Virus record (IMG/VR): IMGVR_UViG_3300042291_000844 | Coordinates: 173,725 to 237,724 of that record | DNA length: 64,000 nt | Strand: one strand, 5' to 3' | Origin: a virus | Lineage: Duplodnaviria; Caudoviricetes | In this document: one piece after another, positions 2,812 through 59,673 of the stretch | Position numbering within the stretch: the stretch's first letter is position 1 | Layout of the letters: the number at the start of each line of letters is the position of its first letter | Translations under genes and position numbers: made by a program | Notes under the pieces: model-generated | The model's database searches: none | What the model was told of the DNA's origin: nothing | The model's input: the letters and a program-made list of their open reading frames with translations, nothing else

Positions 2812-3662
2812 TATTCTAAAATGTTTATATTGGTTAACAATGGTTTTAGGTGGAGGTTTTCTTTAAGGTAATCCATATGAATATAGTAGTGTTCAAATTG
2901 AACGGCCTTTATATCACTTGAAAAGGGTGAACCTTCATATACCCATTCTTTATATGGACTCTTATATAATTGTCCTGCATAAGGATTAAACTTTAATAAC
3001 CCACTATTAGATATCTTTAAATAATCTAAATAAGGATTTTTTATTTTTAAATAAGGTTGGTCATTAAATAACATCGGTGCGTGATAAATCTCATTTGATT
3101 CAAAGTTTATCAAGTTAATTTTATATTTTTTGTTTTCCTTAAAGTATTGTTTGATTATATCTAACTCACATCCTTCAGTATCTATTGATACCCAATCAAT
3201 TACCTCCGGTGTTTTGTACTTATCGAATAGAGAACATAGTGTAAGTGTATTAACATCAAACTCACCTACTACCTCCGACATCCTTGCATCGTTTATCGAA
3301 CTCTTTAATCCTGAATATGATGGTATCTCCCTACATTCAAATACTGCAGTTCCGTTTGAATCTGATATTGCTTCGGTACTGATATTACAATTTCTATGTA
3401 ACTTCAATTCTTCTTTCCAAGTAGGATTTGGTTCTACTACAATACCATTCCACCCCAATGTTCTTTCAAATAAAAATGATTGAGACATTCTAATTCCATC
3501 CAAAGCACCTACCTCTACAAAATAACCATTTCGTTTATTTCCAAATACCACATCTTTATAAAAGATATCGTTATACAAATCATGATAAAATGGTTCGTAT
3601 ATATACTCACCTAATTCGGTATGAGTTTGTCGGTTACTATCTATATCTGATGCGTGTTCCAT
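2811..3662 (-). CDS. FkbM-family SAM-dependent methyltransferase
   Basis: FVEVGALDG, GWNGIVVEPNP, IDWVSIDTEG motifs; start moved to ATG 3662 (TAATG coupling). Confidence 0.85.
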   Translation of the reverse strand: MEHASDIDSNRQTHTELGEYIYEPFYHDLYNDIFYKDVVFGNKRNGYFVEVGALDGIRMSQSFLFERTLGWNGIVVEPNPTWKEELKLHRNCNISTEAISDSNGTAVFECREIPSYSGLKSSINDARMSEVVGEFDVNTLTLCSLFDKYKTPEVIDWVSIDTEGCELDIIKQYFKENKKYKINLINFESNEIYHAPMLFNDQPYLKIKNPYLDYLKISNSGLLKFNPYAGQLYKSPYKEWVYEGSPFSSDIKAVQFEHYYIHMDYLKENLHLKPLLTNINILE

Positions 3663-3856
3663 TATTTCTTTTTTGGGTTTGGTTTGGTCACATCCCTTAA
3701 CATCTCCCAATCTTCTTTGGATATGGGTTTAGCAAGGAATATAGATTGTCGTATAAATGGGGATTGTGCTATGTGCATGAAATCTGACCTCTTCCTTTCA
3801 AATACTTCAACGAACTCATCATACGTCTTTGTTCCTGTTATAATATCTATTGACAT
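3662..3856 (-). CDS. Small hypothetical protein
   Basis: 64 aa directly behind the promoter at 3871-3907. Confidence 0.7.
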   Translation of the reverse strand: MSIDIITGTKTYDEFVEVFERKRSDFMHIAQSPFIRQSIFLAKPISKEDWEMLRDVTKPNPKKK

Positions 3857-3870
3857 GGTGGTTATTATTT

Positions 3871-3907
3871 AAAGCTAAGATACGAATAAAAATCCGTATT
3901 TCCAAAT
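3871..3907 (-). promoter_or_regulatory. Bacteroidota-type promoter (TTTG-N20-TATCTTAG)
   Basis: Minus strand ATTTGGAAATACGGATTTTTATTCGTATCTTAGCTTT; 41-bp identity with 9947-9987. Confidence 0.8.
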
Positions 3908-3912
3908 TTATT

Positions 3913-4269
3913 TTAAGTTTTTAAGTAGTTCTCCTCTATCAGATGCTTAAAGTAATCCTCTATGGACTTCATAAACTCATTAGGGGTTTTCATATTTTTA
4001 GGACTAAACCCAAATGTTGGATAGGTGAATGGTGGAAATACTGCATTAGGGCCGGAGGTATCATCCATCAATTGTAAGGTATAGAATTCACCAACGAAAT
4101 TATGTTCTAATACCCTATTTAATACCAACCTCATATAATGGTTATAGGTATCCGATTTAATGGCCATATGATAGGATTCCGGTATGGGGGTAGTAACCCT
4201 AGTGATATGATAATCAGTCCCTATTATATGGGTGTTATTAATTTTTTCTATGTTTCGTATTGTTAACAT
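3913..4269 (-). CDS. Hypothetical protein
   Basis: 118 aa ORF. Confidence 0.7.
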   Translation of the reverse strand: MLTIRNIEKINNTHIIGTDYHITRVTTPIPESYHMAIKSDTYNHYMRLVLNRVLEHNFVGEFYTLQLMDDTSGPNAVFPPFTYPTFGFSPKNMKTPNEFMKSIEDYFKHLIEENYLKT

Positions 4270-4507
4270 ATTGTTTTATTTTATATACAACCATTACACT
4301 CAGTATTAGGATATTGAATGCGTAGTTAAAAAGGAGTGGCATATCTCTTAATGGTATAATGTATATAAACATAAACACTTCACCCAAATACCACATCATA
4401 AGGAATGGCCAACCTAAGTGGCATCTCCCATCTTTAATTGTTCTTATCATTTCAGGGAACGCACATACTCCTAAGAATATTGCCCCTAAGTAACCCAGTA
4501 TTTCCAT
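4238..4507 (-). CDS. PQ-loop/SemiSWEET-like 3-TM membrane protein
   Basis: LGYLGAIFLGVCAFPEMIRTIK (PE in place of PQ), three hydrophobic helices. Confidence 0.7.
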   Translation of the reverse strand: MEILGYLGAIFLGVCAFPEMIRTIKDGRCHLGWPFLMMWYLGEVFMFIYIIPLRDMPLLFNYAFNILILSVMVVYKIKQYVNNTKHRKN

Positions 4508-4528
4508 ATTATCGTTTTTGTAGTTTTT

Positions 4529-4942
4529 CTATTTCCTCATCCAGTGAGGTAGGCTGTTTATCATATTATATAGTTGTGCTGATATAGAGAATGCTGATGA
4601 TATCGGCGATATCGGCATTGATAGGTTTTCTAAATCTATTAACCTCTCTACCAATAATTCCCAATTCTGTCTGAACCCACTTATTGTCCGAATCGCATCG
4701 GTTTGGACTTGTATTTGAGTATGTAGTTTATTTTTAGGATTACCCAACCAGATGATATGCTCATGTGGATTTGGATTATTAATATGTAAGGATAACTCCC
4801 ACTTCGGTTTCTGTGGTAAGTTTAGATTCAATACATCTGCAAGGTATTCCGTTTCATACGCATTGTGTATTGGGTTAACTATACAATAACCTCTATATGT
4901 AATACCACTCAATTTCTCCCACCCTTTTATTTTTACTCCCAT
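4529..4942 (-). CDS. Hypothetical protein
   Basis: 137 aa ORF; N-terminus resembles 3913..4269 and 6108..6422 in style. Confidence 0.7.
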   Translation of the reverse strand: MGVKIKGWEKLSGITYRGYCIVNPIHNAYETEYLADVLNLNLPQKPKWELSLHINNPNPHEHIIWLGNPKNKLHTQIQVQTDAIRTISGFRQNWELLVERLIDLENLSMPISPISSAFSISAQLYNMINSLPHWMRK

Positions 4943-8511: not shown

Positions 8512-9090
8512 TTACGCAACCTTTAAGTAAGGTAAGGCTTTCTCGATAGTGGCATCGGTTACTTTGTAACTCTTAACCTTCTCAATCGCCTTCTCTAAGG
8601 ATATCGGTCCCCAAACGTACTTACCGGCAATCATATCGGTCAACATACGAATCACATCAGGATATGTTCCGAAAGGCGCCTTATTACCAACATGAACATA
8701 TTTCACACCTGCCTCTATATCCATACCCTTCTCAGTCTTCATACCACTTACTTCGTATGAATCGTAACAATCTGTCCAACCATTAAACTTACCATACTCA
8801 AATGAGTTGGCGATAGTTCTAATATCAGCGTATATCGCTGGTGATACTTCCGAACCATCTGGCATACACATATCCACATCTAAGGAGTTACCATTAGCGA
8901 AGGATGATGATTTACACCATATCAGGATATTAGGGTATTTGGACTTGGTATATGATTTAACTATCTTACCCGCGATTACTGGACTACCATATACATAGGG
9001 GGTAACACCATCATTTCTCATTCTGATGACCTCTGCAGGTAACTCAACTTTAACTCCATTTACTACGATTGCGATTTTCTTACTTTTCAT
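8512..9090 (-). CDS. LPD29-like (polyvalent protein-associated domain) early protein
   Basis: YPNILIWCKSSSFANGNSLDV...FEYGKFNGWTDCY matches the recalled LPD29 pattern. Confidence 0.55.
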   Translation of the reverse strand: MKSKKIAIVVNGVKVELPAEVIRMRNDGVTPYVYGSPVIAGKIVKSYTKSKYPNILIWCKSSSFANGNSLDVDMCMPDGSEVSPAIYADIRTIANSFEYGKFNGWTDCYDSYEVSGMKTEKGMDIEAGVKYVHVGNKAPFGTYPDVIRMLTDMIAGKYVWGPISLEKAIEKVKSYKVTDATIEKALPYLKVA

Positions 9091-27083: not shown

Positions 27084-28301
27084 CTAAAACTGTGGAATCT
27101 CATCCACATTATCTTCAGTCTTCGCTTCGAAAAGCGGAGAACCATTTTCATCCTTTTCGTACTTTTGAACTAATTGCTTAACATAAGTTCTTTCAGAATC
27201 AACCCCACCATCGTTAGAGAAGAAAGGAAAGATTGAAATCTCTGCAGCTTCAAACAAATTGAATCCATCATAAACCAAACTCGCCATTTCAACCGATGCT
27301 CTGGTAGAAACCATTGAGGATAACTTTCCACTATCACTCATTGATTGAGTTCTTGTGTGGTGAGAAATCTCGGAGATTGCTTTCAAATCATCTTCAGCAA
27401 CTTCTGGGAACATATATTTAAGTAATTCAAATTCCTGTACATCATTCAACACATCCATTTCAATTGTTACGAAACGGTCTAACATTGCTCGGTCAATAAC
27501 ACGAGTAGAGGTATATTCAGAACCAATATTGGCAGTTGCGATAAAGGTAACCCCGTCTGCAACATTTACAATTGGTGAACCTTCTGCCTCGTCCAATCGT
27601 AAGTATCTTTGACCTTGGTCTAAAACACTCATTAAGATATTCCAAGCATCTGGGTGAGCTCTACTTAACTCATCCAATAAGATAACTGCGTTTGGTGTCT
27701 TAATGGCTTTAACGAAAGCCGATTCTGAGAAGAACGTTCCCTTGCCTTGGTCAAAGTGAGTATTACCAATTAAGGTCGCTCTCGGGTCTTGAGTTGCACC
27801 TAAGTTGAAATAATAATCAGGTCTCTCTAATGATTTAACCAACGCCTTTGCGGCTAATGTTTTACCACAACCAGCAGGGCCGGTCATCATAATATTCTTA
27901 GCACGAACTGCTGAACGAATTAAGTATTTCCACTTAAGGTCTGTCATCACCAACTCACGTGGTTTTAATGATACCGAACCCTTATGGATGAAATCCTTAA
28001 CTGCATTGTGGTCTGCGGATTCCTCAATTTGGATACCACCATCTGCAGTATTCATTGGGATAATCATCGCGTTATATACACCCATATCTACTTTACGATA
28101 GGTTTTTTTACCTGTCTTATCTACATATGCTTGAACCGCTTTACCTTCGTTGAAGGCTTGTTTACGGGTTAAGGATGTACCTAATGTACCAACCTTGTTA
28201 CCGGCAGTGTCAATCATTTTGAAAGTACTACCAAATTTTTCTACTTTGTAGATTTCGTTAGCAACGAACCCTACCACATTTAAATCGAGATTTTTTTTCA
28301 T
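27084..28301 (-). CDS. MoxR/CbbQ/NirQ-type AAA+ ATPase
   Basis: Walker A GPAGCGKT, Walker B ILLDELSR, TANIG, DRAMLDRF; start moved to ATG 28301. Confidence 0.9.
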   Translation of the reverse strand: MKKNLDLNVVGFVANEIYKVEKFGSTFKMIDTAGNKVGTLGTSLTRKQAFNEGKAVQAYVDKTGKKTYRKVDMGVYNAMIIPMNTADGGIQIEESADHNAVKDFIHKGSVSLKPRELVMTDLKWKYLIRSAVRAKNIMMTGPAGCGKTLAAKALVKSLERPDYYFNLGATQDPRATLIGNTHFDQGKGTFFSESAFVKAIKTPNAVILLDELSRAHPDAWNILMSVLDQGQRYLRLDEAEGSPIVNVADGVTFIATANIGSEYTSTRVIDRAMLDRFVTIEMDVLNDVQEFELLKYMFPEVAEDDLKAISEISHHTRTQSMSDSGKLSSMVSTRASVEMASLVYDGFNLFEAAEISIFPFFSNDGGVDSERTYVKQLVQKYEKDENGSPLFEAKTEDNVDEIPQF

Positions 28302-28438: not shown

Positions 28439-30532
28439 TTATTTAGAAAGAAAGAGTGAATTCATTGTTTTGGTGATTTGTGAAACGTTTGTCACATCAA
28501 TACATTCAGCACCCTTACCATACATCGTTTTAAACCCGTGACTAACTCTACCTGAACTACTTTCCTCAACAAAGTAAGAAAGTGTTTTAATACCCATTCC
28601 TTCTATTTGCTTAACCATCTTTTGAGTATGTTTATAAGCAGGTCCACCTTGATATTCAAATTTACTGCAGTTAAAGAAAGGTTCACCATCTGATATGTTT
28701 AAGAAATAAGAATCCATATCGTTATTAGATGGAACTAACAATTTCATAATTGCTTCGTAACATAATCCTTCCGGTGTAGTACCCCCTGCGTTTAAGCCAG
28801 GGAATAAACTTTTCACTTTTGAAATCTTATCAACTCGTGAATCATAAGCAATAACTACATAAGGTTTTGAATCGGTTGTGGTTCTGATTGAAATCTGAAT
28901 TGAAAGATTTTGAATCATATCAACTGCCTTACATAAAGCGGTTACGTTGGTAAGAGTTTCCACCCATTTTCTACCACTCATTGAACCAGATGCATCAATC
29001 GAAACGTGCAAGTTAGCCTTTTTGTATGAATCAATCTCAGTAAATTGGAAAACGTTTTCGTTTCCGAATCCTAATGATGAAATCATTCTCTTATCAATAC
29101 GACCAACTTTTTGTCTATTAAAGACCGTCGTTCTATCTTCACCTCGTACCTGTAATCTCTTACCTAACAAAGTTCCGATACGAATTCCGTTGTCAATTGC
29201 AGCCTGATTATATTTGTGAAATTCCTTAGTTTCCCAATTTACATAACTAAGAGGGAACGTGTCGGTATTCATCAATGCCGTAGTTAATTTATTAACCACA
29301 ATACATTCAACACCTCGTTGTGGAGTACCCCAACCATTTGGCATATCCACACCCACCGATTTAATTTCAGAACCAGATTCTTCAATTGAGTTAAGGTCGG
29401 TCAATTCTCTATTACTAATACCCTTCTTATGGATATTACCACGTAAGAAATCCTTTTGTTTTTCTATTTTCTTTTTTAATAACTTTTTCTGAGTTTCTGA
29501 TAATTCGGTAGCCGATTTTGAACTACCCTCTGAATCAGATGTAGATGGCTTACCACCTTCCATTGGAGATGATGCAGACATCGATGAACCTCCCATTGAA
29601 TTTTCATCTTCATCGCCAACCATTTCAGTTTTACCATTTTCAGAATCAGAATCAGATTCATCCGATTCATCATTTGATTGACCAGAACCACCACCACCTT
29701 CACCTTCTTCGTCTCCATTTTCTCCCTCACCGGTTTCACCTTGTGTAGAATTAGATTGGTCTTGTGCTTTAGTTGCGATAGGTAAGTTAGTTAAAATCTC
29801 TTCAAAGATACTCAATGCAACATCAAACGCATCTTTTGTAGATTGTAAACGGCTGATATTACCCAACCCAACCAATTTGTAAATGGCTTTAAGACCATTC
29901 AACTTATTAAGGTCAGCGTTTTTATTATGAAGATTGATAATTCTGAACATATATGATTCAATAGTTTCCTCATTATATTCATCACTTTTCAATGCCTTAT
30001 CAATTAAAGGGTCATTAAAGTACTTATCATACATTGAACGATAATACTCTCTATAACCAGGTGCCTGATTAAATACATACCAGTCAATTCGTCTATCTTC
30101 AACATAGTTCCAAATATCCTTTACGATTGATATCGGATTCATAATCCCTTTTTTAATTGCGGAATCAGAAACCGAAGCGGGAATCATTGAATGAATATCT
30201 CTCAATAATTCAAAGTTAGATAATTTAATGTGAGAACCCTCGTGTAACGCCAATCCAACTGCCACGTCAAAATCCTTTGGTTCAACTACATTAGAACCAA
30301 TTACCACTGCTTTACCATCAGTATAGGAATTACCCTTACCGGAGAATTTCACAGGGATTGATTTGTTAGTAACAATGTTTACGAAGTTTGAAATCGCCCT
30401 CTTTGCAGTGGCTAATTTATAAAGGTCATGTGATTTACGCTCAACATCATTCATGTTGGTAACTAAGATGTCATCATCTTCCCAATCGCGTAACCAGTAA
30501 GAGGCGTGGGGTTTATAAGAATATTTACTCAT
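28439..30532 (-). CDS. CobT-like protein: HExxH metallopeptidase-like N-domain, acidic linker, C-terminal VWA
   Basis: LHEGSH, VEDRRID, acidic G/S/E/D linker, MIDAS DASGS, GGTTP, SDGEP; start moved to ATG 30532. Confidence 0.85.
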   Translation of the reverse strand: MSKYSYKPHASYWLRDWEDDDILVTNMNDVERKSHDLYKLATAKRAISNFVNIVTNKSIPVKFSGKGNSYTDGKAVVIGSNVVEPKDFDVAVGLALHEGSHIKLSNFELLRDIHSMIPASVSDSAIKKGIMNPISIVKDIWNYVEDRRIDWYVFNQAPGYREYYRSMYDKYFNDPLIDKALKSDEYNEETIESYMFRIINLHNKNADLNKLNGLKAIYKLVGLGNISRLQSTKDAFDVALSIFEEILTNLPIATKAQDQSNSTQGETGEGENGDEEGEGGGGSGQSNDESDESDSDSENGKTEMVGDEDENSMGGSSMSASSPMEGGKPSTSDSEGSSKSATELSETQKKLLKKKIEKQKDFLRGNIHKKGISNRELTDLNSIEESGSEIKSVGVDMPNGWGTPQRGVECIVVNKLTTALMNTDTFPLSYVNWETKEFHKYNQAAIDNGIRIGTLLGKRLQVRGEDRTTVFNRQKVGRIDKRMISSLGFGNENVFQFTEIDSYKKANLHVSIDASGSMSGRKWVETLTNVTALCKAVDMIQNLSIQISIRTTTDSKPYVVIAYDSRVDKISKVKSLFPGLNAGGTTPEGLCYEAIMKLLVPSNNDMDSYFLNISDGEPFFNCSKFEYQGGPAYKHTQKMVKQIEGMGIKTLSYFVEESSSGRVSHGFKTMYGKGAECIDVTNVSQITKTMNSLFLSK

Positions 30533-44605: not shown

Positions 44606-45121
44606 TTAATCTAAGTTTGATTTTAATTTACTACTAATTCTACCTAATTCCATTTTATCAATACCCAATCCATCAATTATTTTTGCCAATAATTTAATTT
44701 TTTGATTATAAGATAATTCTTTACCATTCATTAATTCTAATGCTTTCTCAAATTTTATTTTGATTGCTGCCGGAATTACTGCTGTGTTTATTTCATCAGC
44801 ACCTTCCATAATTTTTTTTAGTTTCATAATTTTACTTTCTCCATATTGTTCATCTTCATCATCTAACCCCATAGCAACAGCTGCAGGTTGTACATGATGG
44901 TTTGGTAACATTAAACCATATTCGGTTTTTAATTTATTAAGAATTTCTTTTTTAATATGATTTGGTAACCCTTTATGCGATGTGGATGCAAAATCCTTGG
45001 CATCTTTATCAGTCATATCCTTTGCCACCTTTGCAACTTCTGGACTTGCAGGTTTCTCGCCTTTTTGTGTAGCGTGAACCATACCCATAAATCGTTGTTG
45101 TGCTTTAGATACTGATGGCAT
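44606..45121 (-). CDS. Phage protein, putative head-packaged
   Basis: MPSVSKAQQRFMGMV motif recalled from large phages; internal MKLKKIMEG. Confidence 0.65.
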   Translation of the reverse strand: MPSVSKAQQRFMGMVHATQKGEKPASPEVAKVAKDMTDKDAKDFASTSHKGLPNHIKKEILNKLKTEYGLMLPNHHVQPAAVAMGLDDEDEQYGESKIMKLKKIMEGADEINTAVIPAAIKIKFEKALELMNGKELSYNQKIKLLAKIIDGLGIDKMELGRISSKLKSNLD

Positions 45122-45153
45122 ATTTCTTCCTTATTTAGTATAAATATAGAATT

Positions 45154-45681
45154 TTAATGTTTTATATGTTGAACTCTCCACTTAACGTTCTTAGTTCTCA
45201 ACATTTGTTTTGCTGCTGATACATTTTTCTCCGAATCATCTACAAAGTAAATATCATCATAACCTTCATTATCAATCATATTTTCAATCCAATCTGCTTT
45301 ATCTTTTGGATTATTAGATGCAAGTGCAACCACATAAATTTTTTTAGAATTTATACCTATATCACTTAAATATTTTTTGATTGGTTGGTATGATGCTCGT
45401 GCTGTAAGGATATACACCACCTCTTTACTTTTTTGAACGATACCTCTAAGGATTTTAGTTATCTTTTGTATCTCTTGTGGTTCTTTTACCTGTTCAAAAT
45501 CTTTAAAATCATAAACATCGCCAGGTTTTTCAGTATACACTGCATATTGGCCGGGTGTCAGTTTACTCTTCATTCCATTATTATGGGTGACGTAGATATA
45601 AGAGTTTGTTTTGACAAGAGTATCATCAAAATCAAATATTCGTAAATTTTTACTTTCAGTAAATAAATTTCTTGAAATCAT
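45154..45681 (-). CDS. HAD-superfamily phosphatase-like protein
   Basis: FDFDDTL, ILTAR, FVDDSEKN. Confidence 0.8.
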   Translation of the reverse strand: MISRNLFTESKNLRIFDFDDTLVKTNSYIYVTHNNGMKSKLTPGQYAVYTEKPGDVYDFKDFEQVKEPQEIQKITKILRGIVQKSKEVVYILTARASYQPIKKYLSDIGINSKKIYVVALASNNPKDKADWIENMIDNEGYDDIYFVDDSEKNVSAAKQMLRTKNVKWRVQHIKH

Positions 45682-45715
45682 AGATGTATATAAATATTAC
45701 TAACCTTTTTAATGA

Positions 45716-48767: not shown

Positions 48768-50324
48768 TTAGAATGTCATTTTAGAACCAATTTGGAAGTT
48801 ATGTAATAAACTAAATTCGGGTACGAACGCTATGTTTGCTTTATATCCAAAGTTAAATCCAAATCTTTTACTAATTCTATAATCAATAGCAGTTCCTAAT
48901 AATGCACCCGGTGTTCTACTTACAGCAGTTCCACCAGTCACTGTGTTATATGCAATGGGTGCTGACATTACAAACACCTGTGGTGAAATTGTAAGTTTTT
49001 TTGAGTATTGATATGGTTTAGTCCAAAATACTACTACTGAGGTTGAAAGTGATGTATTATATTTCATTTCAGTACCTTGCATCATTAAGGTAATTACACC
49101 TAAGTTATATCCAAACGTACCTAATGTTGGGTGCGGTTTAATCCAAGTATATCCCAATAACCCCATCAACGTACCTTTAAGATATGCGGTGGTGAACGAG
49201 TAACTATTAAGTGCTTTTAATTTACCATCCTCAATTACCATTTTAGTAACTCCAGTTGATAGTGCGAATTGGTCAAATGTAGACCATATCAACGCAGATG
49301 CTGAATAAGATTTATCACCCATTAAGGATGATTTAGATACTCCTACTGACATCATTGCTGCATACTCACCATCTGCACTTTCAGTTCCTGCTAAATCAGA
49401 TGATAGCATCATTGGATTTGTAACTGCAGCTTTTTTCTTTTCTTTCTTTTCCTCTTTCTTCTCTTCCTTTTTTTCTTCTTTCTTTTCCTCTTTGGACTCT
49501 TCCTTTTTTTCTTCTTTCTTTTCTTCCGATTTACTTTCCTCTTTCTTTTCCTCTTTACTTTCAGATTTAGTTTCCTCTTTCTTTTCCTCTGATTTAGTTT
49601 CGGTTTTCTTTTCTTCAGTTTTTGATTCGGTTTTAGCTTCAGTCTTACTTTCCGTTTTAGTTTCGGTCTTACTCTCCGTAGATGAAGATGATGAAGAACT
49701 ACTCGATGAAGATGAAGATGAAGAACTACTACTTGATGATGAAGAACTACTTGCAGGTGGAGGTGTTGAACTACTACTTGCAGGTGGAGGTGTTGATGCA
49801 GGTGGTGGAGTTGCTACCGATGAAGTTGCTGCTGTTGCAGATGAACTTGCTGCGGATGATGCGGATGATGATGCGGCACCACTCGCGGATGAACTTGCTG
49901 CTTTTGCTGCTGCTTCTGCTGCTGCTTTCGCTGCTGCATCGGATGCTGCTTTTGCTGCTGCATCTGCTGCTGCTTGTGCGGCGGCGGATGCTGCTGCGGC
50001 TGCTGCTTGTGCTGCAGCCTGACTTACTGCTTGTTGGACGGTTTGTTGAACTACTACATTAGTTGGACATCCTAATGTGGAATATGCTAAATAGGTAGTT
50101 TGTAACCATGCATTTAATATACCACTTTGTACTTCTAAAGGAGTGAATGTTCGAACTTGATTATAAAATGAAACTACTGCATTACCACCTACATAAGTGG
50201 TGGATGCAATTTTTATTTCACCAGTACATTTATCTATGAATGTTTGCGTGAATACTTGAGCATTTACTTTTTGTGCAAATAGAAAAATACAAATTATTAT
50301 AAAGTTTACTATCCATTTTTTCAT
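48768..50324 (-). CDS. Secreted protein: low-complexity Ala/Pro/Ser/Glu-Lys stalk + C-terminal beta-barrel
   Basis: Signal peptide (VNA-Q), long low-complexity linker, amphipathic strands, terminal Phe. Confidence 0.7.
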   Translation of the reverse strand: MKKWIVNFIIICIFLFAQKVNAQVFTQTFIDKCTGEIKIASTTYVGGNAVVSFYNQVRTFTPLEVQSGILNAWLQTTYLAYSTLGCPTNVVVQQTVQQAVSQAAAQAAAAAASAAAQAAADAAAKAASDAAAKAAAEAAAKAASSSASGAASSSASSAASSSATAATSSVATPPPASTPPPASSSSTPPPASSSSSSSSSSSSSSSSSSSSSSSSTESKTETKTESKTEAKTESKTEEKKTETKSEEKKEETKSESKEEKKEESKSEEKKEEKKEESKEEKKEEKKEEKKEEKKEKKKAAVTNPMMLSSDLAGTESADGEYAAMMSVGVSKSSLMGDKSYSASALIWSTFDQFALSTGVTKMVIEDGKLKALNSYSFTTAYLKGTLMGLLGYTWIKPHPTLGTFGYNLGVITLMMQGTEMKYNTSLSTSVVVFWTKPYQYSKKLTISPQVFVMSAPIAYNTVTGGTAVSRTPGALLGTAIDYRISKRFGFNFGYKANIAFVPEFSLLHNFQIGSKMTF

Positions 50325-51151
50325 TACTTATTATTCAATCCGATTGAAATTTGAGAATACCCTCTAATTGGGTCAGTTTCTAATTTTAATGTAACGAATT
50401 TGAAATCTTTTATAATACCAACTTTAAATGTAGTGAATGAGGAATTTGATTTTGGAAATGAAATACCACCTAAGTCATCTTTACCTTGCCATCTGATAAC
50501 TTCATTGCCAAATCCTATCATACCATGTATACCTATTTTACCAATTCGTTTACCACCACCTACATATAAAGTTGATTCTTTTTTCCAATCTTCTTTACTA
50601 AGTGGAAAGTCAACATTATTAATTTGACCATATGGATAGTATTGGTTTTGGTCTATTGCATAAGTCATTACATAATCCATAATGAAATATGATTTTTTAC
50701 CACCAACGATTCCCCAAAATGCTGCTTGTTTATTAGTAGTATGCCCAAATCCAAATGAGGTATAAACTCTTTCTTTTCTAATAGTATCTCTTTTACCACT
50801 TTCGTATACATGAATTACACTTCTTTGTCTCCAGCCATAATCATCATACCAAATGTAAGGCATTGGTTGATACCATCCCCAATTACCCCAATAATAACCA
50901 AACTGATTATTTCTATTCCAATTTTGGAATCCACCTCTACCACGTGGTGGCAATGGTTGTGATTCTTGTGGTGGATTGTTTCTCCAACTACTCACATTAT
51001 TTTGTTGTGGTATAGATGGTTGAACTCTTGTTTGAGTTGATTGTGATGTTTGTGATGATGATGGAACACTTCCACCAGTTTGTCTCCAAGTTGATACTTG
51101 TGAAAATGCTAACGTTGGTAATAATACCAATAAGGTTATTATACTTTTCAT
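50324..51151 (-). CDS. Secreted/outer-membrane beta-barrel-like protein
   Basis: Start moved to MKSIITLL (TATTTATA 15 nt upstream); AFS-Q signal; amphipathic strands. Confidence 0.65.
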   Translation of the reverse strand: MKSIITLLVLLPTLAFSQVSTWRQTGGSVPSSSQTSQSTQTRVQPSIPQQNNVSSWRNNPPQESQPLPPRGRGGFQNWNRNNQFGYYWGNWGWYQPMPYIWYDDYGWRQRSVIHVYESGKRDTIRKERVYTSFGFGHTTNKQAAFWGIVGGKKSYFIMDYVMTYAIDQNQYYPYGQINNVDFPLSKEDWKKESTLYVGGGKRIGKIGIHGMIGFGNEVIRWQGKDDLGGISFPKSNSSFTTFKVGIIKDFKFVTLKLETDPIRGYSQISIGLNNK

Positions 51152-51155
51152 AGGA

Positions 51156-51872
51156 CTATCTTTTATATAAATATAACATTCCATTTCCATCAACACAAAT
51201 TGCACTCATATTCTCAATCCAATCACCACTATTTAAATATCTCTTATCGTTTATCATTCTGTCTTCCGGTTGGTGGATATGCCCACATATAACTCCATCA
51301 CATCCTTTTTTAGTTGCCATTGATAATGCAGTAGTTTCAAAATCATTTACATAATTTGTTGCAACCTTAACTGAATTTTTAATCTTTTGTGAAATGGATA
51401 TGTAAGGTAGTTTTCTCCACTTACGATATGTGTTGTAAACTCTATTTAACCAAAGTGCAAAATCATATCCCACTGCACCTATCTTTGATAACCATTTATA
51501 TTTTGTAATGAATACATCGATGACATCTCCATGAAAACAATAGTATTTTTTTTCGTTCACATTTAGGATATAATCCTCTCTTATTTCAATTGACCCAATG
51601 TGATTATTCATAAATTCTTGAATAAATTCATCGTGGTTTCCTCTAATCCAAATAATACGAGTTTTATTAGAAATCTTTAATAACTTACTGATTACTTTGG
51701 TATGCGATTTTCTCCATTTAGAACCTCTATTCAATGCCCAACCATCGATTATATCTCCATTAAGAATTAATAATTCCGTAGGATGTGATTCTATAAATTC
51801 TATGAATTCATCAGTTTTAGAATCTTTTATACCTAAGTGTAAATCTGATACTATGATTGCTTGATATTTCAT
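51156..51872 (-). CDS. Metallophosphoesterase of the PlcP/LpxH2 (UDP-2,3-diacylglucosamine hydrolase-like) family
   Basis: SDLHLG, NGDIIDGW, RGNHDE, FHGD, CGHIH, YLNSGDW; start at ATG 51872 (ATGA overlap). Confidence 0.85.
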   Translation of the reverse strand: MKYQAIIVSDLHLGIKDSKTDEFIEFIESHPTELLILNGDIIDGWALNRGSKWRKSHTKVISKLLKISNKTRIIWIRGNHDEFIQEFMNNHIGSIEIREDYILNVNEKKYYCFHGDVIDVFITKYKWLSKIGAVGYDFALWLNRVYNTYRKWRKLPYISISQKIKNSVKVATNYVNDFETTALSMATKKGCDGVICGHIHQPEDRMINDKRYLNSGDWIENMSAICVDGNGMLYLYKR

Positions 51873-52588
51873 GTCCAATAGTTGTGGTGGTGTTTAAAGA
51901 AGTTAGGATTATTTCGGTTTATATAACTTAGTATCATTATCTTAAACATCCATAATACTCCTTTATTTTTAAATCGCCTTGCAGATGTCCACACTCCTTT
52001 TGTTTTATGAATCCAAAATTTCTTTGGATTTATTTTTGATGAAAGAGAGTAATCTTCTGCAAATAATTCTTCAGGATTATATCCACCAATTTCCCAATAG
52101 GTTTTAGTATTAAAAATCTGAAACCCACCTACTGCAAATGGAGTGCCTAATAATGTACTTAATCTTTGAAATTTATCAAAGATACGGAAAACCCAATTCC
52201 ATCCCGTTTCTGTCTGAAATGGAGTGGTTACTAAATCTACTTCATAGTATGCAAGTGAAGTTTCCCATATATTTTTTAATAGATTTTTATTTCTTAACAT
52301 CACATCCGCATCTAAGAATAGAACGTATGGTGTTTTTACCAATTGTGAACCATTTAGACGGGCTTTAGCAGGATATCCACCATTGATGGTATGAATTACT
52401 ATGGAGAACCCAAAATCGATTCTTGCCCTGCTTAACCAATAAAGTGAATCCGCATCATCGGAACTATCTGCAATTACTACATTAGTTCCTTCTATATCAG
52501 ATTGTTTACAAATTAAACCTAAACAATCGTAAATGTTAATACCTTCATTTTTACAAGGTATAACGATAGTAAGTATATCTTTTAGCAT
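51869..52588 (-). CDS. GT2 glycosyltransferase
   Basis: IVIPCKNE, IADSSDD, FLDAD, GGY...AED, SARRF. Confidence 0.9.
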   Translation of the reverse strand: MLKDILTIVIPCKNEGINIYDCLGLICKQSDIEGTNVVIADSSDDADSLYWLSRARIDFGFSIVIHTINGGYPAKARLNGSQLVKTPYVLFLDADVMLRNKNLLKNIWETSLAYYEVDLVTTPFQTETGWNWVFRIFDKFQRLSTLLGTPFAVGGFQIFNTKTYWEIGGYNPEELFAEDYSLSSKINPKKFWIHKTKGVWTSARRFKNKGVLWMFKIMILSYINRNNPNFFKHHHNYWT

Positions 52589-52600
52589 ATAGGTATAAAT

Positions 52601-52626
52601 AAAAAATCCCCATTTTTATTGGGGGA
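52601..52626 (-). terminator. Intrinsic terminator followed by a TATTTATA motif
   Basis: TCCCCA/TGGGG stem plus T run. Confidence 0.7.
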
Positions 52627-52651
52627 CTTATGTATTATTAAATTATTAATA

Positions 52652-52885: not shown

Positions 52886-52897
52886 ATGTATAAATAT

Positions 52898-52925
52898 AAA
52901 AAAAGGGAGAATAAATCTCCCTTTT
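52898..52925 (-). terminator. Intrinsic terminator (copy 1 of the terminator+TATTTATA cassette)
   Basis: AAAAGGGAGA/TCTCCCTTTT. Confidence 0.85.
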
Positions 52926-56609: not shown

Positions 56610-56661
56610 AAATTATTTAAGTTAGTTCCTCAATAATTATGCTCTCGCTTCTTTTAATAGG

Positions 56662-56688
56662 TTAATTCAATATTAACAAATTATTATC
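56662..56688 (-). promoter_or_regulatory. Three 11-bp-phased repeats (PhoB/OmpR-box-like) upstream of the TBDR
   Basis: Minus strand GATAA/GTTAA/ATTAA; plus-strand starts 56684, 56673, 56662. Confidence 0.4.
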
Positions 56689-58890: not shown

Positions 58891-59610
58891 TTATGCACCG
58901 AATGCTTTAGTAAATCCTTCAGGACAAGTTTTTGTACATATCAAATCTGCAATAACAGGTGCAAATGCTGCTCCAATCGCAATACCAACTCCAGCCGGTG
59001 TTGCCCATAACTCTGCAGAATCTAAACTTTTACCTAAACAATTTGAAATTATATTTTTTAATAGCGTGTGGTCAATACTATCACTAACGTATGGTATTGC
59101 TAAAAATCCTTCTGTTATAATTTCACTCATCGCCATTACTACCACCACTTTAGCTGCCTTATCCGCAACATAAAGAATTGGTTGTGCCATAAGCGATAGA
59201 GTGGTTGATGTTGCAGCTCCCGCTGGTTGTTCTGGCGCAAATGCTGCCACACACCCCAACCCAATTGCTGCGGTTACTCCTATATTACAAGCATTTTTAT
59301 CGGCCCATTGATATGCATCAATTACCCCTTCTTTTACTTCTTCGTAACCTTCTTTGATTACAGACTCTATTTCATTTCCAATATTAATGAGTACCGGTAC
59401 TACTTCTTCTTCCCACTCTCTACCAGTTACATCTTCAATTCTATGATTTATTTCAGGATGGTCGTGTATGTACCTTATTGCTTTATCGGTAAGTCCCCAT
59501 GATTCACATGTTGAACAAGGGCCGTCACCACCAAATCCATACCATCTTACATTGTTATCTCCGCAATCTGAGCGATGATAAACTATTCCGTCTCCGTTTC
59601 TGTCTGCCAT
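58891..59610 (-). CDS. Hypothetical protein with Ala/Gly-rich hydrophobic helices and Cys pairs
   Basis: 239 aa; TATTTATA upstream. Confidence 0.7.
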   Translation of the reverse strand: MADRNGDGIVYHRSDCGDNNVRWYGFGGDGPCSTCESWGLTDKAIRYIHDHPEINHRIEDVTGREWEEEVVPVLINIGNEIESVIKEGYEEVKEGVIDAYQWADKNACNIGVTAAIGLGCVAAFAPEQPAGAATSTTLSLMAQPILYVADKAAKVVVVMAMSEIITEGFLAIPYVSDSIDHTLLKNIISNCLGKSLDSAELWATPAGVGIAIGAAFAPVIADLICTKTCPEGFTKAFGA

Positions 59611-59645
59611 AATTTTTTTCTTTTTTGTTTATTTTATATAAATAT

Positions 59646-59673
59646 AAAAAAAGGGAGAAATCATCTCCCTTTT
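59646..59673 (-). terminator. Intrinsic terminator (copy 2 of the cassette)
   Basis: AAAAGGGAGA/TCTCCCTTTT, same flank as 52898-52925. Confidence 0.85.

What the first reader, a model, noticed from the sequence alone, without database searches (positions are those of the whole stretch)
51156..52588. PlcP-like phosphoesterase + glycosyltransferase operon: phage-driven membrane lipid remodelling?
Seen: a coupled GT2 and metallophosphoesterase behind their own TATTTATA motif. The latter matches the PlcP/LpxH2 pattern (SDLHLG, GDIIDGW, GNHDE, HGD, GHIH, NSGDW). Known: in P-starved bacteria PlcP cleaves phospholipids to DAG and a neighbouring glycosyltransferase makes P-free glycolipids. Inference: the phage mines host phospholipids for phosphate for its genome while back-filling the membrane. 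A class 3 lipase and the TBDR module are nearby. I am not aware of this being described as a phage module.
Basis: partly seen in the sequence, partly recalled or inferred. Interest (0 to 1): 0.8.

Follow-up and report, generated by a model that had tools for sequence, protein, structure and literature searches.

The report
Phage PlcP-type phospholipase plus GT2 cassette
A giant lake-water phage of Bacteroidota carries two tightly coupled genes, a relative of the bacterial enzyme that cuts the phosphate head off membrane lipids and a sugar-adding enzyme, so it probably turns host phospholipids into phosphorus-free sugar lipids during infection, which has not been shown experimentally for any phage.

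Summary
Two minus-strand genes overlap by ATGA: a 239-aa family-2 glycosyltransferase (51869-52588) and a 238-aa LpxH-like metallophosphoesterase (51156-51872). All the quoted motifs are present.

The phosphoesterase is not LpxH. It fails both NCBIfam LpxH cut-offs. On a tree it lies apart from E. coli LpxH and from the separate LpxH paralog of Bacteroidota. Its clade includes cellular members that are fused to, or flanked by, Agt-type GT4 glycosyltransferases, which is the published plcP-agt layout.

The GT2-phosphoesterase pair is adjacent in 79 of 80 related IMG/VR loci, and all catalytic residues are invariant. Four near-complete relatives (180-289 kb) encode a terminase.

The partner is a phage-specific GT2, not Agt. 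Its acceptor is inferred only, from weak GT21 (Pgt-like) similarity and an amphipathic helix.

An 11-bp-phased TTAAY box lies upstream. It recurs before the neighbouring TonB-dependent receptor operon and before bacterial PlcP-like genes, which suggests PhoB-type control.

I found no paper describing phage PlcP; virome papers file such genes as lpxH. This scan has already noted the same kind of cassette on at least 16 other phage genomes.

Verdict: a new variant of the known PlcP-Agt lipid-renovation pathway. The biochemistry is untested.

The parts
52633..52649 (-). 17-bp box TTAATAATTTAATAATA: two TTAAY-type half-sites 11 bp apart. Candidate PhoB/OmpR-type operator of the module.
   Evidence: The pattern WTAAYAATNNNWTAAYA occurs only twice in the 64-kb window, here and before the receptor operon (0.32 expected). 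A matching box lies upstream of GT2 in 30 of 64 distinct related loci, against 10 of 770 control upstream regions. The spacing of TTAAY words peaks sharply at 11 nt.
52608..52624 (-). GC-rich hairpin followed by a T run (terminator-like), between feoA and the module.
   Evidence: CCCCAATAAAAATGGGG plus ATTTTTT. The same layout of hairpin then TATTTATA recurs before feoA and before other genes and in related loci.
52594..52601 (-). TATTTATA word 6 nt upstream of the GT2 start. Candidate phage promoter element of unknown class.
   Evidence: It is not over-represented in the window overall, but it recurs just before start codons after hairpins.
51869..52588 (-). Family-2 (GT-A fold) glycosyltransferase of 239 aa, with no transmembrane segment. 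It belongs to a phage-specific lineage. Proposed glycolipid synthase acting on the lipid made by the next gene.
   Evidence: PF00535 at E 3e-13 and PF13506 (GT21) at 21.1 bits against a cut-off of 21.7. The model has pLDDT 94.9. Fold matches are generic GT-A. D41, D93xD95, E178-D179 and R204-R205 are invariant in 76 phage copies. The best match in 301 Bacteroidota genomes is 26-31% identical.
51156..51872 (-). LpxH-like metallophosphoesterase of the PlcP-type clade, 238 aa. Its ATG overlaps the GT2 stop codon (ATGA). Proposed phospholipase C that releases diacylglycerol and a phospho-head group.
56661..56687 (-). Three 11-bp-phased repeats (ATAATAA tttg TTAATAT tgaa TTAAC) upstream of the TonB-dependent receptor/lipoprotein operon. 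It is the same kind of box as the one before GT2. Context, not part of the module.
50324..51151 (-). Downstream gene for a secreted protein (signal peptide MKSIITLLVLLPTLAFSQ). It starts 5 nt after the phosphoesterase stop with no terminator between, so it is possibly co-transcribed. Function unknown.
   Evidence: A homologue follows the pair directly in L005, L011, L015, L040 and L042.

Best explanation
The cassette is a phage version of the bacterial PlcP-glycosyltransferase 'lipid renovation' pathway. The 238-aa enzyme is a Mn-type metallophosphoesterase of the PlcP clade. During infection it probably cleaves host glycerophospholipids (in Bacteroidota mainly phosphatidylethanolamine) into diacylglycerol and a phospho-head group. 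The translationally coupled GT2 probably sits on the inner face of the membrane and uses a nucleotide sugar to glycosylate that diacylglycerol (or a ceramide). The bilayer is then back-filled with a phosphorus-free glycolipid while the head-group phosphorus becomes available for the phage's large DNA genome. An 11-bp-phased TTAAY box upstream, shared with the neighbouring receptor operon and with bacterial PlcP-like genes, suggests that the host PhoB-type regulator turns the module on when phosphate is scarce. Shown: gene anatomy, clade placement outside LpxH, conservation of the pair and of its catalytic residues, and the shared box. Inferred: the substrates, the glycolipid product, Pho control and the benefit to the phage.
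For: 1. It is not LpxH. It scores 60.6 and 42.8 bits against cut-offs of 134 and 190 for the two LpxH equivalogs. Bacteroidota genomes carry two paralogs, an LpxH-like one (75-98 bits to the model; 23-26% identical to the phage protein) and a second one (34-52 bits; 45-49% identical). On the tree, E. coli LpxH plus the first paralog are split from everything else with SH-aLRT 98, and the phage clade is monophyletic (98) next to the second paralog.

2. The clade behaves like PlcP. Four of the ten best library representatives are GT4-phosphoesterase fusions. In Verrucomicrobiota a GT4 gene lies directly upstream or is fused. One MAG has the order OlsF-like acyltransferase, GT4, phosphoesterase, GT4, His_Phos, CHAD. 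The phage-like paralog was found in 110 of 301 Bacteroidota genomes, against 230 of 301 for the LpxH paralog. F. johnsoniae has a PlcP (Fjoh_4577, PF12850, listed as not part of an operon) induced about 2^8.6-fold by phosphate depletion (PMC8115612).

3. The architecture fits a lipid substrate. The protein aligns end to end with LpxH, lid included. The seven metal ligands are invariant in 79 phage copies.

4. The two genes are coupled. GT2 is adjacent in 79 of 80 viral loci, mostly with the ATGA overlap. The pair is also found in a more distant contig, with the phosphoesterase 52% and the GT2 34% identical.

5. A lipid acceptor for the GT2 is plausible. 18 of 28 family members match PF13506/GT21. 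GT21 Pgt enzymes make glycosyl-diacylglycerols under phosphate deprivation (PMC8231724). GT2 enzymes that use diacylglycerol exist: MG517, which is monotopic through an amphipathic helix (PMC6506492), and cyanobacterial Sll1377. The phage GT2 has a Trp/Phe-rich amphipathic helix at residues 126-148 with a hydrophobic moment of 0.65.

6. Regulation. TTAAY words upstream of bacterial PlcP-like genes and of phage GT2 genes peak at 11-nt spacing (12 and 14 pairs, against 0-4 at other spacings of 5-21 nt; in the bacterial set there is a second peak of 6 at 22 nt). The box is enriched over control upstream regions and is shared with the receptor operon.

7. Other phages. Pelagibacter phage Mosig has a homologue placed divergently beside its pstS gene.
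Against: No experimentally characterised PlcP sequence could be placed in the tree, so the PlcP assignment rests on exclusion from LpxH and on genomic context. The partner is not Agt. It is a GT2 with no close cellular relative. Its nearest curated family is TIGR04283 (54 bits against a cut-off of 182), whose function is unrelated or unknown. Fold searches give only generic GT-A matches, including polyprenol-phosphate and polysaccharide enzymes. The box lies about 50-65 nt upstream of the start codon with a hairpin in between, which is not the classical Pho-box position. Binding by PhoB is not shown, and no Bacteroidota Pho-box consensus was found in the literature. Within this AT-rich window the loose form of the box is not rarer than chance. 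Four near-complete relatives with the pair have no pstS and no receptor, so the module is kept without other phosphate genes. The module heads a run of secreted or outer-membrane protein genes with no terminator, which would also fit a general envelope-remodelling role.
Confidence: 0.55

Rival explanations
1. The enzymes work as proposed (phospholipase C plus a lipid glycosyltransferase), but the purpose is envelope remodelling rather than phosphorus supply. Possible aims are changing membrane charge or receptors (superinfection exclusion, resistance to cationic agents), or preparing the envelope for the phage-encoded outer-membrane proteins that follow in the same transcription unit.
For: There is no terminator between the pair and the downstream genes for secreted or barrel proteins, and the same order recurs in L005, L011, L015 and L040. 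Relatives keep the pair without pstS or the receptor. The phosphoesterase is highly conserved across the lineage (67-85%), which suggests a constitutive role in infection. In P. aeruginosa the glycolipids alter polymyxin sensitivity (PMC8528852).
Against: The upstream 11-bp-phased box is shared with a phosphate-starvation-type receptor operon and with bacterial PlcP-like genes. Every characterised cellular PlcP system is a phosphate-starvation response.
Confidence: 0.2
2. The phosphoesterase is PlcP-like, but the GT2 acts on something other than its product, for example a polyprenol phosphate, a polysaccharide, a protein or a small molecule. In that case the pair is linked for regulation only.
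For: Fold matches are generic GT-A. The best TM-score (0.70) is to a DPMS-like mannosyltransferase, with others to wall-teichoic-acid and polysaccharide enzymes. The nearest curated family, TIGR04283, has no lipid function on record. There is a weak PHROG match to GtrB-like O-antigen conversion (E 5e-4).
Against: The start/stop overlap is kept in most of the 79 loci and in a pair only 34%/52% identical. The cellular PlcP clade is repeatedly fused to, or flanked by, lipid glycosyltransferases. The GT21-type signal is present in 18 of 28 members. There is no GtrA or GtrC partner and no transmembrane segment.
Confidence: 0.15
3. The phosphoesterase is a working LpxH (UDP-2,3-diacylglucosamine diphosphatase), and the pair modifies or boosts lipid A/LPS synthesis. 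This is how databases and virome papers label such genes.
For: Source annotations call it LpxH. The best curated and structural matches by name are LpxH. Virome papers list viral lpxH under LPS biosynthesis (PMC10653327 and PMC13384950).
Against: Its scores are less than half of both equivalog cut-offs. It is 18% identical to E. coli LpxH and 23-26% to the Bacteroidota LpxH paralog, against 45-49% to the other paralog. The tree separates them with SH-aLRT 98. The phage-like paralog was detected in fewer Bacteroidota genomes than the LpxH paralog (110 against 230 of 301).
Confidence: 0.05
4. The phosphoesterase acts on a soluble phosphodiester or pyrophosphate (a cyclic nucleotide signal, a nucleotide sugar) as a counter-defence or nucleotide-metabolism enzyme.
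For: Many phage metallophosphoesterases have such roles. There are weak PHROG matches to generic phosphoesterases and to a repair exonuclease.
Against: The protein has the full-length LpxH-type architecture with the helical, basic and aromatic lid. Its clade and the contexts of that clade are lipid-related.
Confidence: 0.05

Closest known systems
Bacterial PlcP-Agt lipid-renovation pathway (S. meliloti SMc00171; Phaeobacter sp. MED193; SAR11 HTCC7211; P. aeruginosa PA3219-PA3218; B. cenocepacia BCAL2364-2365; F. johnsoniae Fjoh_4577)
   Same: Both pair an LpxH-like metallophosphoesterase that is distinct from LpxH with a glycosyltransferase in one operon. Cellular members of the phage protein's clade show the published layout, with GT4 adjacent or fused. 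Both have an upstream direct-repeat box of the OmpR/PhoB kind (Pho boxes are reported for PA3219 and PA0842 in PMC8528852).
   Different: The cassette is encoded by a lytic-type giant phage. The partner is a 239-aa GT-A enzyme of family GT2, not the roughly 350-400-aa GT-B enzyme of family GT4. The gene order is glycosyltransferase first. The phage phosphoesterase is at most 49% identical to any bacterial protein found. No activity has been shown.
LpxH (UDP-2,3-diacylglucosamine diphosphatase; PDB 5k8k, 5b49)
   Same: Same fold and same lid insertion. The seven metal ligands align, and the proteins align end to end.
   Different: It scores below both equivalog cut-offs and is 18% identical to E. 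coli LpxH. It falls in a separate clade. The lid sequence and flanking motifs differ: NGDIIDGW, CGHIHxP and YLNSGDW in the phage protein against GDLFxxW, GHTHRP and LGxW in LpxH.
Lipid glycosyltransferases with a GT-A fold: GT21 Pgt of Mesorhizobium/Agrobacterium, GT2 MG517 of Mycoplasma genitalium, GT2 Sll1377 (MgdA) of Synechocystis
   Same: All have a GT-A fold with a DxD motif. 18 of 28 members of the phage family match the GT21 Pfam model. The phage enzyme has no transmembrane helix but has a strongly amphipathic helix, as described for MG517.
   Different: No sequence-level membership could be shown. The window's protein scores 21.1 bits against a cut-off of 21.7 for PF13506. It is shorter than all three enzymes, and its acceptor is unknown.
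Phage phosphate-regulon auxiliary genes (cyanophage and pelagiphage pstS, phoA, phoH)
   Same: These are host-derived phosphate-stress functions carried by phages. In pelagiphage Mosig the PlcP-like gene lies beside pstS.
   Different: The target is membrane lipid phosphorus rather than external phosphate. In the held library such genes are filed as 'lpxH'.

Membership tests
PlcP (LpxH-like phospholipase C of lipid renovation) | Calcineurin-like metallophosphoesterase core with a complete set of metal ligands | tested here: met
   PF00149 and PF12850 match. D10, H12, D40, N79, H114, H198 and H200 align with the LpxH ligands and are invariant in 79 phage copies.
PlcP (LpxH-like phospholipase C of lipid renovation) | LpxH-type helical lid inserted in the core (lipid-binding cap) | tested here: met
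   End-to-end alignment with 5k8k and 5b49. The model has helices at 120-188. The top 30 Swiss-Prot fold matches are all LpxH.
PlcP (LpxH-like phospholipase C of lipid renovation) | Branches with PlcP and apart from LpxH in a phylogeny | tested here: inconclusive
   It is apart from E. coli LpxH and the Bacteroidota LpxH paralog with SH-aLRT 98. No experimentally characterised PlcP sequence was obtainable through the tools, so 'with PlcP' rests on context only.
PlcP (LpxH-like phospholipase C of lipid renovation) | Genetic linkage to a diacylglycerol glycosyltransferase | tested here: met
   The clade's cellular members are fused to or adjacent to GT4. In phages a glycosyltransferase is adjacent in 79 of 80 loci, but it is of family GT2, not GT4.
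PlcP (LpxH-like phospholipase C of lipid renovation) | Induced by phosphate starvation through PhoB (Pho box) | tested here: inconclusive
   An 11-bp-phased TTAAY box is conserved upstream and shared with bacterial homologues and with the receptor operon. Binding by PhoB and induction are not shown.
PlcP (LpxH-like phospholipase C of lipid renovation) | Mn-dependent hydrolysis of PC, PE or PG to diacylglycerol | not testable with these tools
   This needs an enzyme assay or lipidomics.
LpxH (UDP-2,3-diacylglucosamine diphosphatase) | Reaches the curated equivalog score | tested here: not met
   NF003743 scores 60.6 bits against 134; TIGR01854 scores 42.8 against 190.35.
LpxH (UDP-2,3-diacylglucosamine diphosphatase) | Orthologous to the housekeeping copy of the host phylum | tested here: not met
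   Bacteroidota have a separate LpxH-like paralog that is 23-26% identical to the phage protein. That paralog was found in 230 of 301 genomes, against 110 of 301 for the phage-like one.
Agt (GT4 glycolipid glycosyltransferase, partner of PlcP) | GT-B fold, with Glyco_transf_4 and Glycos_transf_1 domains | tested here: not met
   The phage partner matches PF00535 and has a GT-A fold. There is no GT4 match.
GT21 (ceramide glucosyltransferase / Pgt processive DAG glycosyltransferases) | Reaches the PF13506 gathering score | tested here: inconclusive
   The window's protein scores 21.1 bits against 21.7. 18 of 28 family members match at E <= 0.01, the best at 4.6e-10.
TIGR04283 (small GT2, 'arsenosugar biosynthesis glycosyltransferase') | Reaches the curated equivalog score | tested here: not met
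   It scores 54.2 bits against 182. True members from Bacteroidota score 196-222 bits and are 24-31% identical.
GtrB-like phage O-antigen conversion glycosyltransferase | GT2 with C-terminal transmembrane helices and GtrA/GtrC partners | tested here: not met
   There is only a weak phrog_841 match (E 5e-4). The model shows no transmembrane helix, and no GtrA- or GtrC-like neighbour was found.

The most novel reading that the evidence does not exclude
A large lineage of giant freshwater Bacteroidota phages carries, as a near-constant genome feature, its own two-enzyme pathway: a PlcP-type phospholipase C plus a phage-specific GT2 that has taken the place of the cellular GT4, GT21 or GT28 partners. 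The pathway is wired to the host's phosphate-starvation regulator. It converts the infected cell's phospholipids into glycolipid and passes membrane phosphorus into virion DNA. If so, many 'viral lpxH' genes in aquatic viromes are lipid-remodelling genes, and viral infection changes the lipid phosphorus pool of phosphate-limited lakes.
Probability: 0.4. Interest if true: 0.75.

Novelty: new variant of a known kind. Interest (0 to 1): 0.62.

Why it matters
Phosphorus is the limiting nutrient in many lakes and ocean gyres, and a 200-300 kb phage genome needs a lot of it. Phages are known to carry genes for phosphate uptake (pstS, phoA). A phage pathway that mines the host's own membrane phospholipids would be a different route of viral phosphorus acquisition. 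It would also change how 'lpxH' auxiliary genes are read in viromes, where they are now filed under LPS biosynthesis. It would add a new, compact GT2 family to the enzymes that may make phosphorus-free glycolipids. The module is small, highly conserved, and directly testable by expression in E. coli or Flavobacterium followed by lipidomics.

Tried and rejected
1. Complex prediction on GT2 plus phosphoesterase gave no verdict (score 0.01 against a mark of 0.32). It counts neither for nor against binding.

2. Expression. No expression data were obtained.

3. GNHD against GNRD as a PlcP/LpxH discriminator was rejected. E. coli LpxH has GNRD, but the Bacteroidota LpxH paralog has GNHD.

4. TATTTATA as a statistically enriched word: it is not enriched window-wide (20 found, 20.25 expected).

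5. Tying the box to a known Pho gene. The only pstS-like gene found in one Dyadobacter genome sits behind another ORF, and no box lies in the 6.5 kb around it. A strict three-repeat pattern hit only the plcP-like locus in that genome, while the reversed control pattern hit three times. This was uninformative.

6. The loose box pattern is not rarer than chance inside this AT-rich window. Only the refined 17-bp form and the comparison across loci carry weight.

7. Fold searches for the GT2 (PDB and Swiss-Prot AlphaFold) give generic GT-A matches at TM 0.6-0.7 and do not identify the acceptor.

8. The first genome-contig scan with the wide alignment A1 failed for lack of a conserved stretch. It was repeated with A2.

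9. Wei et al. 2018 on PlcP residues (PMC6052262) is not held. The B. cenocepacia PlcP paper mentions none of the terms I searched for (LpxH, metallophosphoesterase, motif, active site).

10. There is no near-identical phage in the INPHARED collection, and tblastn with the GT2 found nothing among deposited phages.
Full report
**What is there**

The window is AT-rich (about 32% G+C), and nearly all long ORFs lie on the minus strand. At the stated place there are two ORFs. The first is a 239-aa protein (51869-52588) that matches Glycos_transf_2 (PF00535, E 3e-13). The second is a phosphoesterase that matches Metallophos and Metallophos_2.

Reading the DNA shows that the real start of the second gene is the ATG at 51872. 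It overlaps the TGA of the first gene as ATGA, the usual sign of translational coupling.

Upstream of the GT2 start, in order, lie a 17-bp AT-rich box, a GC-rich hairpin with a T run, and TATTTATA 6 nt before the ATG. There is no terminator-like site on the minus strand between the pair and the following genes for secreted or barrel-like proteins.

**It is phage DNA**

The phosphoesterase has more than 120 relatives in IMG/VR at 67-85% identity. Four near-complete records that hold the pair (180-289 kb, CheckV 95-100%, one with terminal repeats) each encode a large terminase. Host-type promoters of the Bacteroidota kind (TTTG ... TAnnTTTG) stand before several genes of the window. The nearest bacterial homologues are from Bacteroidota and Verrucomicrobiota. 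Earlier notes of this scan on the same genome, which I did not re-test, describe head, tail and tRNA genes and a probable Bacteroidota host.

**The phosphoesterase is LpxH-like but not LpxH**

It aligns end to end with solved LpxH structures, including the helical lid. Its AlphaFold model (pLDDT 90.9) finds only LpxH entries in Swiss-Prot. However, it reaches less than half of the two curated LpxH cut-offs.

In four Bacteroidota genomes the LpxH model finds two paralogs. One scores 75-98 bits and the other 34-52 bits. The phage protein is 23-26% identical to the first and 45-49% to the second.

In a maximum-likelihood tree of 93 sequences, E. coli LpxH plus the first paralog are separated from all the rest by a long branch (SH-aLRT 98). 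The 16 giant-phage loci sampled, with one library representative, form one clade (98) beside the second Bacteroidota paralog and the Verrucomicrobiota proteins. Pelagiphage Mosig and cyanophage S-SRM01 fall elsewhere in the same large clade, which suggests separate acquisitions.

With single-protein queries at E <= 1e-30, the LpxH-type paralog was found in 230 of 301 Bacteroidota genomes and the phage-like one in 110 of 301. This is as expected for a housekeeping gene and an accessory gene.

**Why I call the clade PlcP-type**

I could not obtain a characterised PlcP sequence through the tools, so the assignment rests on context.

- Among the ten best representatives of a 1.8-billion-protein library, four are fusions of a complete GT4 glycosyltransferase to the phosphoesterase.
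- In the Verrucomicrobiota loci other than the single Opitutae locus (L159), a GT4 gene lies directly upstream or is fused.
- One MAG carries the order OlsF-like acyltransferase, GT4, phosphoesterase, GT4, histidine phosphatase, CHAD protein. This is a cluster of phosphorus-free-lipid and polyphosphate functions.

This is the published plcP-agt layout (PMC4796936, PMC8528852, PMC9239053, PMC13691135). In F. johnsoniae, a PF12850 protein listed as not part of an operon and named PlcP is among the genes most strongly induced by phosphate depletion (PMC8115612).

**The pair is a conserved module**

A homologue of the GT2 lies directly upstream of the phosphoesterase in 79 of 80 viral loci. In most of them it has the same 4-nt start/stop overlap. 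The GT2 diverges faster (42-71% identity) than the phosphoesterase (67-85%).

A more distant contig has the same pair at 34% and 52% identity. All catalytic residues of both enzymes are invariant in 79 and 76 phage copies respectively. None of the 80 bacterial loci has this GT2. In 301 Bacteroidota genomes the best match is 26-31% identical, and the two such matches I scanned are genuine members of TIGR04283. The partnership is therefore a phage invention, not a copied operon.

**What the GT2 may do**

Its model is confident (pLDDT 94.9), but the fold matches are generic GT-A enzymes. Three observations point to a lipid acceptor, and none of them is proof.

- 18 of 28 family members also match the GT21 Pfam model, the best at E 4.6e-10. 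GT21 Pgt enzymes make glycosyl-diacylglycerols under phosphate deprivation (PMC8231724).
- GT2 enzymes that glycosylate diacylglycerol exist, and one of them holds to the membrane by an amphipathic helix (PMC6506492).
- The phage protein has no transmembrane segment but has a conserved Trp/Phe-rich amphipathic helix (residues 126-148, hydrophobic moment 0.65 against a median of 0.19).

**Regulation**

The upstream regions of the related loci share a box, consensus (T/A)TAAYAAT-N3-(T/A)TAAYAT.

- A loose form occurs upstream of GT2 in 30 of 64 distinct loci, against 10 of 770 other upstream regions of the same loci. It occurs upstream of bacterial PlcP-like genes in 13 of 64, against 12 of 504. 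The loci are related, so the p-values are inflated.
- The spacing of TTAAY words is sharply peaked. Upstream of the bacterial genes there are 12 pairs at 11 nt and 6 at 22 nt, with 0-2 elsewhere. Upstream of phage GT2 there are 14 pairs at 11 nt, with 0-4 elsewhere. Direct repeats one helical turn apart are the signature of OmpR/PhoB-type regulators.
- In this window the refined box occurs only twice, both times on the coding strand. One is before GT2 and the other is before the receptor-lipoprotein operon (0.32 expected). An earlier follow-up of this scan judged that operon to be a copy of host phosphate-starvation genes.
- I found no published Bacteroidota Pho-box consensus, and the position of the box is unusual, so Pho control remains an inference.

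**Limits of the phosphorus story**

Four near-complete relatives with the pair have no pstS and no such receptor. The module heads a block of envelope protein genes. A role in envelope remodelling for other ends therefore cannot be excluded.

**Comparison with what is known, and novelty**

In the held literature I found no description of a phage-encoded PlcP. Deposited phages annotate the homologue as UDP-2,3-diacylglucosamine hydrolase, and virome papers list viral lpxH under LPS biosynthesis.

This scan has already recorded the same kind of cassette, with GT2 or GT4 partners, in at least 16 other phage genomes. Those are unchecked AI notes and do not count as independent evidence.

I classify the finding as a new variant of a known kind: the bacterial PlcP-glycosyltransferase pathway in a phage, with a different glycosyltransferase family as partner. 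My confidence that the phosphoesterase is of the PlcP clade is about 0.9. My confidence that the whole pathway works as proposed is about 0.55.

Noticed in passing
window 52889-52925, 52594-52624, 59637-59670, 45689-45696, 45139-45146: A recurring unit of GC-rich hairpin, T run and (TA)TATTTATA sits directly before start codons (feoA, GT2, 58891-59610, 45154-45681, 44606-45121). It looks like a phage-specific terminator/promoter cassette that separates inserted genes. A second class, ATTTGGAAAT...TTAGCTTTGTA, which resembles host -33/-7 promoters, stands before other genes (for example 28439-30532, 27084-28301 and 8512-9090).
   Followed up: partly
window 56661-56687 (-): Three 11-bp-phased repeats lie upstream of the TonB-dependent receptor operon and match the box before GT2. 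The two modules may share one regulator.
   Followed up: yes
L081 (Pelagibacter phage Mosig, MT647606) 2897-4732: A PlcP-like gene, annotated as UDP-2,3-diacylglucosamine hydrolase, lies divergently next to the phage's pstS-type phosphate-binding protein gene. No glycosyltransferase is adjacent.
   Followed up: partly
L191 2024-9722 (MAG contig): A bacterial cluster with the order OlsF-like bifunctional acyltransferase, GT4, PlcP-like phosphoesterase, GT4, histidine phosphatase, CHAD protein. It is a compact phosphorus-sparing lipid island.
   Followed up: no
P0244, P0245, P0248, P0250, P0260: Natural fusion proteins of a whole GT4 glycosyltransferase with a PlcP-like phosphoesterase (564-663 aa). 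On the tree they group with the Verrucomicrobiota proteins.
   Followed up: partly
window 50324-51205: The listed ORF starts at a GTG inside the phosphoesterase gene. The plausible start is the ATG at 51151, which gives a clear signal peptide (MKSIITLLVLLPTLAFSQ) and a Gln/Asn/Trp-rich secreted protein with no family match.
   Followed up: no
window 45154-45681: A small HAD-family hydrolase (PF13419 and PF00702, weak matches) behind both promoter-like motifs. It could be a phosphatase acting on a released phospho-head group, but this is speculation.
   Followed up: no
literature: PMC13384950 (Xanthomonas phage X1): The authors list both 'lpxH' and 'mgs' (a monoglucosyl-diacylglycerol synthase name) among the phage's auxiliary genes and read them as cell-wall or LPS genes. 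Together they could be another PlcP-plus-glycolipid-synthase pair.
   Followed up: no
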